64,000 nucleotides of DNA from the NCBI RefSeq assembly GCF_009914755.1, contig NC_060930.1; one strand, given 5' to 3'. This document shows, one piece after another, positions 2,298 through 31,361 of the stretch. The translations under genes were made by a program, and so were the position numbers. The notes below the pieces were generated by a model that did no database searches, was not told where the DNA came from, and saw only the letters and a program-made list of their open reading frames with translations. The DNA is from the human T2T-CHM13v2.0 reference genome, Homo sapiens. How positions within the stretch are numbered: position 1 is the first letter of the stretch; each line of letters begins with the position of its first letter.

Positions 2298-3096
<799 letters not shown>

Positions 3097-3137: not shown

Positions 3138-3304
3138 AGTGTGCAGAATGATTCACAAGCAATTGCTGAGGTTCTCAACCAGCTTAAAGATATGCTTGCC
3201 AACTTCAGAGGTTCTGAAAAGTACTGCTATTTACAGAATGAAGTATTTGGACTATTTCAGAAACTGGAAAATATCAATGGTGTTACAGATGGCTACTTAA
3301 ATAG
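3138..3304 (+). CDS. DSP: Desmoplakin coding exon (exon 16)
   Basis: ttgacAG|AGT and TAG|GTaaac; 167 nt; SVQNDSQAIAEVLNQLKDMLANF... Confidence 0.95.
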
Positions 3305-24070: not shown

Positions 24071-24145
24071 ATAAGGACTCACAATTCCAGATAATTAAAC
24101 AAGCTAGAACTGCAGTTGGGAAAGACAGTGATTGTTATAATCAAA
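24071..24145 (+). CDS. SNRNP48: SNRNP48 exon 4
   Basis: tgacAG|AT and AAA|GTaagt; 75 nt; KDSQFQIIKQARTAVGKDSDCYNQ. Confidence 0.93.
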
Positions 24146-24448
24146 GTAAGTGGCATTACAGTTTAAGTGAATTAAAGAATGAAATTATTATTTTTCTCAT
24201 AAGCATGTTACTAATTTTCTTCAAGAAAAACCTGTGAAAACTGTTACATGGGAAAGGTAAAGTTTTACATTTAACATTGGGCTAATTTGCTTCGTTTCAA
24301 CTTCATTTGTTAGATATTTCCTGTTGAGATACACCAGAGTCTCACTAAGACACTATCTTAGCTAGGGGTTCATCCTTTGGAATTACCTGGCGATTTATAG
24401 GTGAGATTGTCTTGTGGCTAATTAAAAAAAATTATTATTTAGTAAATA

Positions 24449-24652
24449 CAGATGGTCCCAACTTAATGATGATTTAATTTAGGATTTTTTCAATTTTATG
24501 GTGTTGTGAAAACAATACACAATCACAAGGTTTTAGACTTTAAGTACTAGTGATTCTTTTATCAGACGCTGGGCTGCATTTTCAACTTAACGGTATTTTC
24601 AGTTTATGATGGGTTTATCGGGATGTAACCCCATGTAAGTCAAGGAACATCT
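24449..24652 (-). mobile_element. MER47/Tigger5-like DNA transposon (internally deleted)
   Basis: Termini cagatggtcccaactta... and gatgggtttatcgggatgtaaccccat...aagtcaaggaacatct. Confidence 0.65.
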
Positions 24653-25026
24653 ATAAATGCCACTGAGTGAGGCTCTTTTACTCTTGAGATTTCCTCTCTT
24701 TAGAGTGTTGAAATGCAGTGTAAAGAAAAGGCTTAGGCTAAAAGAGATTAGTCTCCACAGCTACCCTCAGATTGCTTGCTACCCAGTAAGTGAGTTGGTT
24801 TGAGGTGATGAATGCTTGGGATCCCCTTCTCAGAAAAAAAGTACAAACACAAAAGTTTTACATATAATTTCAGAGGATTCATATTAATAGATCCTTTCAT
24901 GCCCAGCTTTAGAGCTGGGTTAAAGAGTTTCTCCCTGGGAACCTCAGCAGAGAGTAGGTTAGAAGTTTTAAGCATAAGCTTTTAGGAAATTGAAAGAAAA
25001 CTTAATCCATCAAAAACATAGACATA

Positions 25027-25322
25027 GGCCAGACACGGTGGCTCATGCCTGTCATCCCAGCACTTTGGGAGGCCGAGGCAGGTGGATCATCTGAGGTGAG
25101 AAGTTCAAGACCACCCTGGCCAACATGGCGAAACCCTGTCTTTACTAAAAAATGCAAAAATTAGCCGGGCATGGTGGCAAGCACCTGTAATCCCAGCTAC
25201 TCAGGAGACCGAGGCAGGAAGAATTGCTTGAACCCAGGAGGCGGAGGTTTCATTGAGCCAAGATTGCACCATTGCACTCCAGCCTGGGCAACAGAGCGAG
25301 ACTCCATCTCAAAAAAAAAAAA
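25027..25322 (+). mobile_element. AluS
   Basis: Full Alu; TSD acatagaca. Confidence 0.95.
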
Positions 25323-26911
25323 CACACATAGACAAACGAGTTAATAAAAGTTTAAATTTCTAATGAATGTAGATATGACATCTAGCCAAAACCTGAACAG
25401 CTTCTCTTGTAAGGATTTCTGCATTGTCTTCTTTGAACCTTCTGTAGGTAGCTTTCTCTGGACAACTTACCTTTTTTTCCTCATTCTTTTTTCTAGCTGA
25501 ATTATATTTACCAGGCTGTAGTCATGGTTGGTTTTCTCCCTCATTGAAATTGAGGATCTTTACCAAATACTGTTCTAAGCCAGTATCTGGACTTGATTTC
25601 TCAGAGTTGCGCTATGGCTTCAGAAGAAAGACCATCTTATCCTTAGTTGTCTATATTACATGGGTTCTCTACAACAGCCAGAAGCACATTTCTTGTATTT
25701 TTTGTTTTGAGGTTCCCACTTTTGTCCCTGTCAGGGAAATTCCAGGTTTTTTTCTTTGAGGGAGACAGTTGACTCTCATTTTATTTATTCGGAGAGATTA
25801 CTGAGCTATGACTAGTCAAGCCTTTTTTGGCCTCTGCTATTGGTTCTGCTCATATCCCCTGGTAGTGTACCCATAAAAAAGTTGAGGTTTTTGGTTTTTG
25901 AAAGGGTTAATAATACTTAAAGGACTTTATTTGAGTCTTAAGTGGTTAGATTTACTGAATTTTAGAGTTGAAAGAGAACTTGGAGATCATCTAATCCAGT
26001 GTCTGCATTTTACAGATAAGAAAAACCCTGTCTGATAGAGACATGATAAAGTTCTAGTGTGTTTGTTCTAAAGGTTCTCCGTATTTTTATTTTTTAAAAG
26101 GTTATTTTTTTAAAGCTCTTTTATGAATTACATTTCTCTTTCACAACAAACTTGTGATAAGTTGAACGATATTTTCCCCTCCATAATAGGTGAAGAAACA
26201 GGCACACAAAAGTGAAGTAACTCACCTCTGCTAGATAATATCAAAGTGGATCCAGAACTAAGTTCTGAATTTTGACACAAACTCTGAACTGAGTTGTTTG
26301 ATTTTCTGTTAGAAACCCTACATTTAGTAAAATTTGTGGACCAGGATTCTAGATATTGCTCAAATTTATTTATGATGTCTTTCATGATTAAGTGGAAGAA
26401 TATCACAAACTTCATATCTCTGCATACTAATCGTGACTATCAGTGCTGTTCATTGTTTATTCTGCTTTGTGTAAACCTGTTTTAAAGAAATAAAAGTAGC
26501 TGCTTGGCCATATATTAATGATGATAACTGAGTTTTTGTTTCCTTATCTGTAATACAAAACTCTCATAGAGTTGTTGAGAGGAACAGAGATAATGGATGC
26601 TAAACAAGCCTTAGCTCCAAAAATTGGTAGCTTCTATGGTCTAAGTGAAAATTAATATACAGAAAGTAATATTAAGATAATGAAATGGATGAGTTTTATA
26701 TATATGAGTAATTTAGAAAATGTTCTGCTTTTTAATTTTTATAATAGTAATAAGGGAGATTTGGACATTGAGCTTAGTTCTTTTCAAAAGCAAAGAATTA
26801 CTTTGAATGAATAGTTAAGAGGAACTATTATATTATTTTGATAGTTAAGAGGAACTTTAATTTTGAATTCTTACACTATCTTAAATTAAGATTTAATTGT
26901 TAACCGTAACC

Positions 26912-27211
26912 TTTTTTTTTTTTTTTTTGAGGCGGAATCTTGCTCTCTCGCCCAGGCTGGAGTTTAGTGGCACAATCTCTACTCACTGCAAGCTCTGCCA
27001 CCTGGGTTCACGCCATTCTTCTGCCTCAGGTCCCGAGTAGCTGGGACTACAGGCACCTGCCACCACGCCTGGCTAATTTTCTTGTATTTTTTTAGTAGAG
27101 ACGGGGTTTCACTGTGTTAGCCACGATGGTCTCGATCTCCTGACCTTGTGATCTGCCCACCTTGGCCTCCCAAAGTGCTGGGATTACAGGCGGGAGCCAC
27201 CGCGCCTGGCC
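26912..27211 (-). mobile_element. AluY-like, antisense
   Basis: gcaagctc...gggttcacgccattct...gtgttagcc...gatggtctcgatctcctgacc. Confidence 0.92.
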
Positions 27212-27235
27212 AACGGTAACTTTATATGATCTTCA

Positions 27236-27580
<345 letters not shown>

Positions 27581-28717
27581 TTATGCAATTTCTCAACAGA
27601 TTATTTTTGTGGCTCACTTATGTCTTAGACATTTTAAGATCTTTTCCCTCAGGACAGGACTTTCTTTAAATATCTTATTGATGTATTTACTTTTAAGGGA
27701 GAATGACTAACATGAAAAATTTTACATTTCTCCATCTAATTCGTATTTTGTTTGTTACACACTACAATGTAAGTTTTTTGACAAGGTTTTATATGTATGT
27801 TTTCATTTCATCTGTCATGTCAGGCCTAAACTCAGTGTACAGAATTCTCAATCTTAAACTTTATGAAAGCTCATACAGCTATTCAATCTATATACTTATT
27901 TTCAGATATAGTTACTTCGGTTAATTTTTTAACCAAGATATTTCAATCATAAACAATCATTTTATGTTTAGTGGTTTATCTTTTTCTTTCAATATTAAAT
28001 ATTCAGGTTGTATACTTCAGTATTGTGAAGTGTGTTTGAGTCATGGCCATGATATGAAGATCAGTGTACTATCAAAGAAACTTAAAAAGACAGCATAGGA
28101 TGGGCTTTAGATCCAGTCTGTTCCTATCACTTGTGAGACTTTGGGCAAGTCATGTTACTTCTATGACACTTAATTTCTTTATCTGTAACGTTAAGGAATT
28201 GACTCTGAATGAATTCTCCCTAAAATTCTGAATTTGTATCTTTGTGACAACACCTACTAGTACTATTTAATGTTGAATGTTATATGTTTAAGATCCCCTT
28301 TGATGACAAAAGTAACAAGAATGAGAATTGGCATTATTAAAACAATAGATTAGAGTTTCAATTTGGGGTGACGAAAAAGTTCTAGAGATGGATAGAGGTT
28401 GCACAACGTGAATGCACTTCATGTCTCTGAACAGTACACTGAAAAAATGGTTAGAATGTTAAATTTTATGTTATATGTATTTTGCCACAAAAAACCTGCA
28501 AAAACAGGCAGCCAAAGGGTCTTAGAGTTATTATAATTACAGCACATTCATATGTACCTTTAAATCATTTAAAAACATGCATTTTGAAAATTTACATTTT
28601 ATGTAAATGTAAGTTTATTTAAGTATGTTTATCCTTTTTGTTGTCAGAAATATCTATGTTCCGAATGAATTGAATGCAGTTTGTTGCTTAACCTTTCCTG
28701 TACTTTTTCTTTTTCAG

Positions 28718-28725
28718 TAATTGGG
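28718..28725 (+). other. SNRNP48: 8-nt poison micro-exon (TAATTGGG) in SNRNP48 intron 4
   Basis: Branch-like GCTTAAC 28686-28692, long pyrimidine tract, cAG at 28715-28717, donor GGG|GTGAGT at 28726; inclusion gives TGA at 30413-30415. Confidence 0.88.
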
Positions 28726-28780
28726 GTGAGTATAAAGAGGAATTAGGAACCTGAATGTACTCCTTATTTAAAGATATGCA

Positions 28781-28807
28781 GTATCCTTTTTGCAAATGAT
28801 ATCCTTT
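28781..28807 (+). promoter_or_regulatory. SNRNP48: USSE (U11 snRNP-binding splicing enhancer): tandem U12-type 5' splice-site motifs
   Basis: GTATCCTTT 28781-28789 and ATATCCTTT 28799-28807, both perfect RTATCCTTT, 18 nt apart; matches the element described for the 48K gene. Confidence 0.92.
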
Positions 28808-30379
28808 TAAAAGTAAAATTTCTAAACTTTATCTTAATACCTGTCACATATTATAGTCTTGAATTGGAATTTTGGTTGAATTACAAGGAATTTAAGTATC
28901 AGTCTTCATCATAAAGAAATTTAAGATGAATAAATTGAAGAAAAGGCTAAAATAATTTAAGAAGGAAATTATATTTCTTTGTTTAAAAATAACAGGCAAA
29001 GGTTTATATGAAGCTTGTTTGTAATACATCATTATTTTCTAATCTGTGTTTTCCTCCCAAATTTTTATAGCCTAATTCAAAGGAATTAGGCTTATCAAAG
29101 CTGTTTTTATAATTTTGTATTATGAAATGCCTACTATAATTAGAATAAAATTGATTGACTTGAAAGGGAACCCTTTTTTCCCCATTAATTCAAAACCCTT
29201 TGACGAGTAAAAATGGCCATATATTGTTATGTATAGCCGTGTTAAACCATGGCCTCAGATTCACTGCAGCTCTCCTCTTAGTATGTAGACAAGTAGTACC
29301 TCTTTTTTGTTGTAATGCTTAGTTCATAGTATGCTCTTATTTGAATTCTTTTTGCCTCTACCTAGGAACTTAATGAGGTTAGACTTTATCAAATATAAGT
29401 ATCTGGAAAGAGCTACTGATTTTATGTTGTTCTATGAACCAGTTACTACTTTAGAATAAGTTAGCAAACAATAAAAGGATTCCTTTAGTAGCTCATGTTC
29501 TTTGTTTGCATTAGTGAGTAATGAAGTCTAGAAAGAATTGTTTTAAATTGCTTTTTTTACAGTTCCAATCATTTTTTTATTTGAGAAAATTTGAATCTCA
29601 AAACAAAAATTTTCTTCAATGTTTAATACATCATATCAAGGTATTGTATTTACTTTTTTTCACTAATGAGCAGATTTTAGAAAATTCTGTAACTACCGGG
29701 GGGCACTGCTATTAACTTTTTTCAATTAATTTGGTTAAGCCACTATGCTTCCTCCTCAGGAAATTAAAATGAGTTTAATTTAATCTGTGCTTTCCTGGCG
29801 TGAGGAGGTGTGGGATTTCTGCTACTTAATTATTTTGTGGCCCCTAGCTCTAAGTCCTTGCACAAGTGGGATATATTTTGAATATTGACCATCTAGCTTG
29901 ATGTCTCATACAAAAAGATATTTTTTACACAGTTTTTAATATTTCCATAGTTTATTTTCAAAGGGACTGTAATGCATATTACTTATTAAAAGCATTTTTT
30001 CCCCCAACTTTGATGGGGAAAAGCATATCAACAGATACCTACTTTTGTAGATGGCTATAAAAATTGTTACCCAAAAGGCTTTCTTAGAGCAAATTGTCTC
30101 TTATGATTATTCCTGCCTGCCTCCATGGGATCTGTCTTTATATTGTTGGAGAGAATAGCAAACATCCATAATACATTTTTTTTTTTTTGTGGATATAACA
30201 TTCAGGATAGAATTGTTTGTCATTTATTGCTTAGATTGATATTTTGCATACTTAGGGATTATGAAAAAAGTTTGTGTTAATATTGCATTATTAAAGCACA
30301 TGTTTAAAGATAATTATTAGATTTTAAGTTCACAATGCTTCATGTATTGTTTATTCTTGTGATTTTATTTTTACTTTAG

Positions 30380-30568
30380 GAATTTATTCTTCATTGCCTG
30401 TTGAAGTTCCTTTGAATCACAAACGGTTTGTTTGTGATCTAACTCAAGCTGATCGTCTTGCCCTCTATGATTTCGTAGTTGAGGAGACAAAGAAAAAGCG
30501 CTCTGATTCTCAAATTATTGAAAATGACAGCGATCTCTTTGTAGACTTGGCTGCCAAAATCAATCAAG
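30380..30568 (+). CDS. SNRNP48: SNRNP48 exon 5
   Basis: ctttAG|GA and AAG|GTttga; 189 nt; IYSSLPVEVPLNHKRFVCDL...KINQ. Confidence 0.94.
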
Positions 30569-30699
30569 GTTTGAGATGCACATCATAGCTTTACATTTCT
30601 TCATTATCATTTTATTCTATGAGTGTTATTAAGATGATTTAATTCTTGGGCCACTTTGAGTTAGAGTAAAATGGTTTTGTATCATTTAATATTGACATG

Positions 30700-31361
30700 A
30701 AGTTGGCCCTCTGTGTCTGTGGGTTCCATATCCATCAATTTGACCAACGGTGGATTGAAAATATTTGGAAAAAATAAAAGTGTGTGGTTGCCTCTGTACT
30801 ATACATGTAGAGACTTTTTATTCTTGTCATAATTCCATAAACAATATATTAACAACTATTCATGCAGCATTTACATCGTATCAGGTTTTTGGTGTTTTTT
30901 TTGTTTTGTTTTTTTGAGACTGAGTCTTACTCTGTCACCCGGGCTGGAATGCAGTAGCGCGATCTCAGTTCGTTGCAATCTCTGCCTCCCAAGCTGAAGC
31001 AATTCTCGTGCCTCAGCCTCCTGAGTAGCTGGGATTACAGACATGTGCCACCACACCTGGCTACTTTTTGTATTTTTAGTAGAGATGGGGTTTTGCTACG
31101 CTGGCCAGGCTGGTCCCAAACTCCTGGCCTCAAGTGATCCTCCTGTCTTGGCCTCCCAAAGTGCTGGGATTACAACGTGAGCCACTGTACCCGGCCTGTA
31201 TTAGGTATTGAAAGTAATTTAGAGATGACTTCAAGTGTACTGGAGGGTGTGTGTAGGTTATATACAAATACTACACCATTTTATATCAGAGACTTGAGCA
31301 TCCATGGATTTTGATATCCTTGGGGGTTCCTGAACAAATTCTGCATGGATACTGAGGGATA
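30700..31361 (+). mobile_element. MER2 (Tigger2-related) DNA transposon split by an Alu
   Basis: gttggccctctgtgtctgtgggttcc...gacttgagcatccatggattttgatatcc...ggatactgaggga. Confidence 0.75.
30886..31196 (-). mobile_element. Alu, antisense (AluJ/Sx-like)
   Basis: Reverse-complement Alu; TSD gtat(c/t)aggt. Confidence 0.92.

What the first reader, a model, noticed from the sequence alone, without database searches (positions are those of the whole stretch)
28684..28807. U11-sensing poison micro-exon cassette: SNRNP48 autoregulatory AS-NMD loop
Seen in sequence: two perfect U12-type 5' splice-site motifs in tandem (GTATCCTTT 28781, ATATCCTTT 28799) deep in intron 4 of a gene whose own introns all look U2-type. 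They lie 55 nt downstream of a U2-type acceptor, an 8-nt exon TAATTGGG (28718-28725) and a GTGAGT donor. Inclusion reads ATA ATT GGG GAA TTT... to TGA at 30413-30415, 153 nt before the next junction, so it should trigger NMD. Read-through past the micro-exon donor hits TAG at 28744-28746, so any use of this acceptor is unproductive. Established knowledge: the 48K CHHC finger helps U11 recognise this motif, and a USSE-driven feedback loop has been described for the 48K and 65K genes. The minor spliceosome therefore measures its own abundance using major-spliceosome splice sites. The system is described, but it is invisible in the ORF track.
Basis: partly seen in the sequence, partly recalled or inferred. 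Interest (0 to 1): 0.85.

Follow-up and report, generated by a model that had tools for sequence, protein, structure and literature searches.

The report
Known U11-sensing poison exon of SNRNP48
This is the already published feedback switch in the human SNRNP48 gene, where two decoy minor-spliceosome splice-site motifs in an intron trigger inclusion of a tiny frame-breaking exon, so the finding is correct but not new.

Summary
GTATCCTTT (28781-28789) and ATATCCTTT (28799-28807) lie on the sense strand of SNRNP48 intron 4. They sit 63 nt downstream of a strong polypyrimidine-AG acceptor (AG 28716-28717). Then come the 8-nt exon TAATTGGG (28718-28725) and a GTGAGT donor. Including the exon shifts the frame to TGA 30413-30415, 153 nt before the exon 5/6 junction. 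Read-through reaches TAG 28744-28746.

[quoted passage not shown] I saw it only in passages of reviews and of Verbeeren 2017; the three primary papers are not held.

- Genome-wide, such tandem pairs are near chance level: 100 with a 5-12 nt spacer against 73 for the reversed-pattern control.
- Two of those 100 are SNRNP48 and a site 2.3 kb downstream of an RNPC3 RRM exon.
- That second site has the same layout.
- No U12-type branch site lies in intron 4, which fits decoy donors.

Conservation and U11 dependence could not be tested here.

Verdict: real, correctly interpreted, already known.

The parts
24071..24145 (+). SNRNP48 exon 4, followed by donor aaa|GTAAGT; it ends in codon phase 1
   Evidence: Hub annotation; (406 coding nt through exon 4)
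28684..28693 (+). Likely U2-type branch-site region TTGCTTAACC (CTTAAC at 28687-28692), about 26 nt before the acceptor AG
   Evidence: The branch-point assignment is inference and was not tested.
28696..28717 (+). Polypyrimidine tract (18 of 20 pyrimidines) and AG acceptor of the alternative exon
   Evidence: The same acceptor starts the RefSeq alternative exon 28718-28904 (hub annotation).
28718..28725 (+). 8-nt poison micro-exon TAATTGGG, which shifts the frame by +2
   Evidence: The literature calls it a 'poison cassette exon' and 'mini-exon transcript'. The size of 8 nt comes from the sequence and from recall of the primary papers.
28723..28726 (+). GGGG run across the micro-exon/donor boundary, the only run of 3 or more G in 28650-28850; candidate hnRNP H1/H2 site
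   Evidence: for the G-run. The role of hnRNP H1/H2 rests on the title of Turunen 2013, seen only in reference lists. Placing the site here is inference.
28726..28731 (+). U2-type (U1) donor GTGAGT of the micro-exon
   Evidence: ggg|GTGAGT has the most consensus matches (6 of 9) of the 5 GT positions from 28719 to 28829.
28744..28746 (+). In-frame TAG reached if the micro-exon donor is skipped (long or retained isoform)
28781..28789 (+). USSE motif 1, GTATCCTTT, a U12-type 5'ss consensus. Positions from +4 on form a predicted 8-bp duplex with U11 snRNA nt 1-8.
   Evidence: duplex -6.7 kcal/mol with the U11 taken from L011
28790..28798 (+). 9-nt spacer TTGCAAATG between the two motifs
28799..28807 (+). 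USSE motif 2, ATATCCTTT
   Evidence: -6.4 kcal/mol
28718..28904 (+). RefSeq alternative exon that shares the acceptor and contains the USSE. It ends without a GT (28905-06 is TT). The nearest hexamers found are AGTAAA at 28812, 92 nt upstream, and AATAAA at 28929, downstream. It is probably a truncated model of the long isoform.
   Evidence: Hub annotation. The 'truncated model' reading is inference.
30380..30568 (+). Exon 5, read out of frame after micro-exon inclusion
30413..30415 (+). Premature TGA created by micro-exon inclusion, 153 nt before the exon 5/6 junction, with three more junctions after that one

Best explanation

How it works:
1. When U11 or the U11/U12 di-snRNP is abundant, it binds the two tandem U12-type 5' splice-site motifs at 28781 and 28799. 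The U11 snRNA 5' end pairs with positions +4 onward, and the 48K protein contacts +1 to +3.
2. The motifs are not spliced. The bound snRNP instead makes exon-definition contacts across about 63 nt to U2AF and the major spliceosome at the polypyrimidine-AG acceptor (28696-28717).
3. The major spliceosome then removes 24146-28717. U1 uses GTGAGT at 28726, probably helped by hnRNP H1/H2 at the GGGG run.
4. Only 8 nt (28718-28725) are inserted between exons 4 and 5. The +2 frameshift gives a TGA at 30413-30415 and the mRNA goes to nonsense-mediated decay.
5. If the micro-exon donor is not used, the long USSE-containing isoform stops at TAG 28744 and is reported to stay in the nucleus.
6. Either way, more U11 snRNP means less productive 48K mRNA. 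That is negative feedback on a subunit of the minor spliceosome.

Shown here: the sequence anatomy, the frames, the absence of a U12 branch site, the U11 complementarity, and the parallel layout at RNPC3. Taken from the literature and not tested here: U11 binding, dependence on the USSE, NMD, and conservation.
For: - Anatomy and frames.
- Gene identity: exon 2 matches PDB chains named U11/U12 snRNP 48 kDa protein (8r7n_F at E 1.4e-21, 2vy4_A at E 3.3e-21).
- Decoy status: 0 matches to TCCTTRAY and 0 to CCTTRAY on the + strand anywhere in intron 4. A U12-type intron starting at either motif would have no branch site.
- U11 pairing: the U11 snRNA found in the same genome (RF00548, 137 bits; sequence) forms a predicted 8-bp duplex of its nt 1-8 with motif 1, and a 7-bp core plus 2 further pairs with motif 2.
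- Second instance: of the 100 genome-wide pairs with a 5-12 nt spacer, one is at C1:103402261. It has GTATCCTTT twice with a 6-nt spacer, 44 nt after a pyrimidine-rich AG acceptor. It lies 2.3 kb downstream of an exon matching PDB 'RNA-binding protein 40' (3egn_A, E 3e-24). I recall that name as an alias of RNPC3/65K.
- Literature, passages read: review PMC3584512, review PMC8329584, Verbeeren 2017 PMC5473595, PMC6865273 and PMC8034651. All describe this mechanism for SNRNP48 and RNPC3.
- Annotation: the RefSeq alternative exon 28718-28904 starts at the same acceptor (hub annotation).
Against: - Nothing contradicts the published model.
- The tandem motif alone is weak evidence: 100 genome-wide pairs against 73 for the control, and 3 single 9-mers in the window against 1.79 expected.
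- Predicted U11 nt 1-12 duplex energy does not single out the USSE. The 12 best non-overlapping 18-nt tiles of the 6216 scanned in intron 4 score -8.8 to -13.3 kcal/mol, against -6.7 and -6.4 for the motifs. Base pairing alone therefore cannot explain specificity. The protein contact to +1 to +3 is taken from the literature.
- I could not read the three primary papers. The 8-nt size, the hnRNP H site and the mutagenesis and rescue data for the 48K gene are recalled or second-hand.
- No vertebrate genomes were available, so conservation was not tested.
- The RefSeq table given to me has no transcript with the 8-nt exon.
Confidence: 0.92

Rival explanations
1. In most cells the main output of the USSE-activated acceptor is the long, USSE-containing isoform. 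It is kept in the nucleus by bound U11 snRNP, and NMD of the 8-nt-exon mRNA is secondary. The element and the sensor are the same; only the silencing route differs.
For: Verbeeren 2017 reports nuclear retention of a 48K isoform that carries the USSE in a large retained exon (text and S8 Fig legend, CHO cells). The only RefSeq alternative exon at this acceptor is the long form 28718-28904, not the 8-nt form (hub annotation).
Against: [quoted passage not shown] The GTGAGT donor directly after the 8-nt exon has the most consensus matches of the local GT positions.
Confidence: 0.05
2. The motifs are real U12-type donors. A 63-nt or 81-nt alternative exon (28718-28780 or 28718-28798) is joined to exon 5 by the minor spliceosome.
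For: Both motifs match the U12-type 5'ss consensus RTATCCTTT perfectly.
Against: There is no U12-type branch site (TCCTTRAY or CCTTRAY) anywhere in intron 4 (0 hits). The last 60 nt before exon 5 contain none. [quoted passage not shown] Such exons would in any case carry the in-frame TAG at 28744.
Confidence: 0.02
3. The tandem pair is a chance occurrence with no function.
For: Genome-wide, tandem pairs with a 5-12 nt spacer occur at near the control rate (100 against 73). Single motifs are not enriched in the window. U11 duplex energy is unremarkable.
Against: Two of the 100 pairs lie on the sense strand 44-63 nt after strong acceptors. One is in SNRNP48 and the other is 2.3 kb downstream of an RNPC3 RRM exon, the two genes for U11/U12 di-snRNP proteins. 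Published functional and conservation data also argue against chance.
Confidence: 0.01

Closest known systems
USSE of SNRNP48/U11-48K (Verbeeren et al. 2010 Mol Cell; Turunen et al. 2013 RNA; Niemelä et al. 2015 RNA Biol)
   Same: It is this element: a tandem U12-type 5'ss repeat in a non-coding part of SNRNP48 that activates an upstream U2-type 3'ss, producing a poison mini-exon, NMD and negative feedback.
   Different: Nothing differs. I did not see the primary papers, so details such as the 8-nt size and the hnRNP H site were matched from the sequence and from recall only.
USSE of RNPC3/U11/U12-65K
   Same: Two perfect GTATCCTTT motifs on the sense strand just after a pyrimidine-rich AG acceptor, at L010 3261 and 3276, next to an RNPC3 RRM exon. 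The same U11-dependent exon-definition mechanism is described.
   Different: The spacer is 6 nt rather than 9, and the acceptor-to-motif distance is 44 nt rather than 63. The GGGG run lies after the motifs, not before them. The outcome is a long-3'UTR mRNA retained in the nucleus rather than a frameshifting micro-exon with NMD.
Poison-exon AS-NMD autoregulation of splicing factors (SR proteins, U1-70K/U1C cross-regulation)
   Same: An unproductive isoform with a premature stop is induced by the gene's own product or complex (the PMC3798272 abstract in the listing).
   Different: Here the sensor is an snRNP of the other spliceosome, bound to decoy splice sites, and the cassette is only 8 nt.
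SRSF10 autoregulated minor intron (PMC7244321)
   Same: Minor-spliceosome activity sets the ratio of productive to unproductive splicing through competition or cooperation with major splice sites.
   Different: In SRSF10 the minor splice site is really spliced and gives the productive mRNA. In SNRNP48 the minor-type sites are never spliced, and their occupancy gives the unproductive mRNA.

Membership tests
[quoted passage not shown] | [quoted passage not shown] | tested here: met
   GTATCCTTT at 28781 and ATATCCTTT at 28799, + strand, 9-nt spacer
[quoted passage not shown] | Lies in a non-coding part of a gene for a U11/U12 di-snRNP protein (SNRNP48 or RNPC3) | tested here: met
   Intron 4 of SNRNP48 (hub annotation). 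Exon 2 matches PDB U11/U12 48 kDa protein chains.
[quoted passage not shown] | An alternative U2-type 3' splice site a short, exon-like distance upstream | tested here: met
   A 90% pyrimidine tract plus AG at 28716-17, 63 nt before motif 1. RNPC3 has 44 nt.
[quoted passage not shown] | The motifs are not used as donors by the minor spliceosome | tested here: met
   This is a sequence proxy only: 0 U12-type branch-site matches in intron 4. Actual non-use is stated in the literature.
[quoted passage not shown] | Complementarity to the 5' end of U11 snRNA | tested here: met
   An 8-bp duplex and a 7-bp core duplex with nt 1-8 of the genome's own U11. It is not the strongest predicted duplex in the intron.
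[quoted passage not shown] | U11 snRNP binding and U11-dependent activation of the acceptor | not testable with these tools
   Literature only
[quoted passage not shown] | Deep evolutionary conservation of the motifs, the intervening sequence and the distance | not testable with these tools
   No eukaryotic genome other than the window's own is held. Conservation is stated.
AS-NMD poison cassette exon | Inclusion creates a stop codon more than about 50-55 nt upstream of a downstream exon-exon junction | tested here: met
   TGA 30413-15 lies 153 nt before the exon 5/6 junction, and three more junctions follow. The 50-55 nt rule is established knowledge.
AS-NMD poison cassette exon | The isoform is stabilised when NMD is inhibited | not testable with these tools
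   Literature statement only

The most novel reading that the evidence does not exclude
The SNRNP48 and RNPC3 elements may not be the only U11 decoy sites. The other 98 of the 100 tandem pairs with a 5-12 nt spacer, or the 299 pairs with a 3-nt spacer, could include further sites. In 7 of the 8 copies sampled, the 3-nt-spacer pairs lie in an old dispersed repeat. Some of these sites might bind U11 and act as USSE-like enhancers or as a U11 sponge in other transcripts. That would widen the feedback loop into a regulon.
Probability: 0.07. Interest if true: 0.55.

Novelty: already known. Interest (0 to 1): 0.1.

Why it matters
The element is a clear example of crosstalk between the two spliceosomes. 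The minor spliceosome senses its own level through decoy splice sites and lets the major spliceosome carry out the unproductive splice. It matters for minor-spliceosome homeostasis and possibly for minor-spliceosome diseases. It has been in print since 2010, so the scan gains nothing new here. It does show that a reader without tools can recover a regulatory cassette that gene tables omit: the 8-nt exon is absent from the RefSeq rows supplied.

Tried and rejected
- The three primary papers (Verbeeren 2010, Turunen 2013, Niemelä 2015) are not held, whether asked for by PMC id or by DOI. Two searches for a printed '8 nt' or '8-nt' statement about 48K returned only papers unrelated to the 48K exon; I opened one and judged the other from its listing.
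I replaced it with an analytic estimate and genome-wide counts.
- Rfam at permissive E-values found nothing in 27500-30700 on either strand. That is expected, because no family for this element is known to me.
- U11 duplex energy does not work as a discriminator.
- I considered a U12-like branch site upstream of the micro-exon. TTGCTTAACC differs by one base from the recalled U12 consensus core, and its counterpart upstream of the RNPC3 acceptor shows no such motif by eye. I judged it an ordinary U2-type branch site.
- I tried to name the dispersed repeat that carries the 3-nt-spaced pair. Pfam found no family in 10 ORFs from 6 copies.
- A direct alignment of the SNRNP48 and RNPC3 regions shows no homology beyond the motifs and T-rich tracts.

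Full report
**Observation.**
I read the finding's stretch and the two flanking exon borders and rebuilt the transcripts with a script.
- An AG acceptor lies at 28716-28717, behind the tract TCCTGTACTTTTTCTTTTTC.
- Then come the 8-nt exon TAATTGGG (28718-28725) and the donor GTGAGT (28726-28731).
- GTATCCTTT lies at 28781-28789 and ATATCCTTT at 28799-28807, separated by a 9-nt spacer.
- The annotated coding sequence translates to a 339-residue protein, and exon 4 ends in phase 1.
- With the 8-nt exon the frame reads ...ATA ATT GGG GAA TTT... and stops at TGA 30413-30415, 153 nt before the end of exon 5.
- If the GTGAGT donor is skipped, the frame stops at TAG 28744-28746.
- All eight annotated introns are GT-AG, and none has a U12-type donor.
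- Exon 2 matches PDB chains named U11/U12 snRNP 48 kDa protein, which confirms the gene.

**Is it more than chance?**
The single 9-mer is not enriched in the window: 3 hits against 1.79 expected, and 21 of 100 shuffles reach 3 or more. The 8-mer gives 9 hits against 5.01, with 6 of 100 shuffles reaching 9. A same-strand pair within 50 nt is expected about 1.25e-3 times per window (analytic estimate).

The window's genome could be searched. Pairs with a 3-25 nt spacer number 552, against 300 for the reversed-pattern control. Pairs with a 5-12 nt spacer number 100 against 73, and many of these lie in TA-rich tandem arrays.

So the tandem motif alone is close to background in a 3.1-Gb genome. The distinctive part is where it sits. 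Of the 100 pairs, one is this site (C6:7468781). Another is at C1:103402261 and has the same layout:
- It has two GTATCCTTT motifs with a 6-nt spacer.
- They lie 44 nt after a pyrimidine-rich AG acceptor.
- The site is 2.3 kb downstream of an exon that matches PDB 'RNA-binding protein 40' RRM structures at E 3e-24.

I recall that name as an alias of RNPC3, the 65K protein. Both genes encode subunits of the U11/U12 di-snRNP. The SNRNP48 stretch 28640-28860 is single-copy.

**Anatomy bearing on the mechanism.**
- The alternative acceptor has the most pyrimidine-rich 20-nt tract of the 9 acceptors compared in the gene: 0.90 against 0.70-0.85 for the eight constitutive ones.
- CTTAAC at 28687-28692 is a plausible U2-type branch site (inference).
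- Among the five GT positions between 28719 and 28829, GTGAGT at 28726 has the most consensus matches, 6 of 9.
- The only run of three or more G in 28650-28850 is GGGG at 28723-28726, across the micro-exon/donor boundary.
- There is no match to the U12-type branch-site motifs TCCTTRAY or CCTTRAY anywhere in intron 4. The two motifs therefore cannot start a normal U12-type intron, which fits a decoy role.
- The genome's own U11 snRNA was found with Rfam RF00548 at 137 bits and read. Its nt 1-8 form a predicted 8-bp duplex with motif 1 and a 7-bp core duplex with motif 2.
- Against over-reading this: the 12 best non-overlapping 18-nt tiles in intron 4 give stronger predicted duplexes with U11 nt 1-12, at -8.8 to -13.3 against -6.7 and -6.4 kcal/mol. 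Base pairing alone does not mark the site.
- Rfam finds nothing in 27500-30700 on either strand.

**What is known.**
A full-text search for USSE, U11 and 48K found 5 papers. I read passages in five papers.
- The 2012 review PMC3584512 describes an alternative U2-type 3'ss activated by the U11/U12 di-snRNP. [quoted passage not shown] The products are degraded by NMD or other pathways, and the system is conserved in animals and plants. The review also says the U11-48K protein recognises the first three intron nucleotides through its zinc finger.
- The 2021 review PMC8329584 adds three points. [quoted passage not shown] The stretch between the 3'ss and the USSE is highly conserved. The distance between them is under selection.
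[quoted passage not shown] - PMC6865273 says USSEs are known only in SNRNP48 and RNPC3.
- PMC8034651 repeats the mechanism.

The three primary papers (Verbeeren 2010, Turunen 2013, Niemelä 2015) are not held. The printed size of the mini-exon, the placement of the hnRNP H1/H2 site and the 48K mutagenesis are therefore recalled or inferred, not seen. Supplements were not consulted.

**Mechanism, with the status of each step.**
1. U11 or the U11/U12 di-snRNP binds the tandem motifs. Complementarity is shown here; binding is from the literature.
2. Exon-definition contacts over about 63 nt recruit U2AF and the major spliceosome to the acceptor at 28717/28718. This is from the literature; the acceptor is also the start of a RefSeq alternative exon.
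3. U1 uses GTGAGT at 28726, possibly helped by hnRNP H1/H2 at the G-run. The site strength is shown here; the factors are known to me only from the title of Turunen 2013.
4. The 8-nt insertion shifts the frame to TGA 30413-30415 (shown here).
5. NMD removes the mRNA. The position satisfies the 50-55 nt rule; decay itself is from the literature.
6. If the donor is skipped, the long isoform stops at TAG 28744 and is retained in the nucleus. The stop is shown here; retention is from the literature.

They are minor.
- 'Any use of this acceptor is unproductive' is true for 4 of the 5 GT positions. A weak GT at 28730 would give an in-frame 12-nt exon, but nothing suggests it is used.
- NMD is not the only silencing route, because nuclear retention is also reported.
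- The RefSeq exon 28718-28904 ends without a donor. AGTAAA at 28812 lies 92 nt upstream of its end, and the nearest AATAAA (28929) lies downstream. It looks like a truncated model of the long isoform (inference).

**Verdict.**
The element is a member of the USSE class; in fact it is the founding SNRNP48 example. It is already known, so interest is low (0.1). Conservation, U11 dependence and NMD sensitivity could not be tested with these tools and rest on the cited literature.

Noticed in passing
Genome-wide (G000); examples L001-L008, e.g. L004 around position 1501: A tandem pair of U12-type 5'ss motifs with a 3-nt spacer (typically GTATCCTTTGTAATATCCTTT) occurs 299 times in the genome, against 9 for the reversed-pattern control. 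Seven of the eight sampled copies share 55-68% identity over about 700 aligned bases around the pair; the eighth, L005, shares 45-50%. This points to an old dispersed repeat family. Pfam found no family in 10 ORFs from 6 copies, so the repeat class is not identified. I did not examine whether these sites bind U11.
   Followed up: partly
L010 3217-3290 (G000:C1:103402217-103402290): The RNPC3-side USSE shows the same layout as the SNRNP48 one: an AG acceptor at 3215-16 and GTATCCTTT at 3261 and 3276. The differences are a 6-nt spacer, a 44-nt distance from the acceptor, and a GGGG run directly after the second motif instead of before the first. Both elements have ATGCA a few bases before the first motif, which may be chance.
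   Followed up: partly
window 28696-28717: The USSE-dependent alternative acceptor has a more pyrimidine-rich 20-nt tract (0.90) than any of the eight constitutive acceptors of SNRNP48 (0.70-0.85). Even so, it is described as silent without U11 bound downstream. This suggests that its dependence comes from the missing or tiny exon, not from a weak acceptor.
   Followed up: no
window 2837-2845, minus strand: The only other perfect RTATCCTTT in the window lies on the minus strand, inside a DSP intron and antisense to that gene. It is a single copy, consistent with chance.
   Followed up: no
G000: C8:81181139, C10:104200058, C8:127798644, C14:23674659, C17:11944478: Besides the best U11 snRNA locus (C1:28490564, 137 bits), five further RF00548 matches lie above the gathering score, at 50-95 bits. 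They are presumably U11 pseudogenes or variant copies.
   Followed up: no
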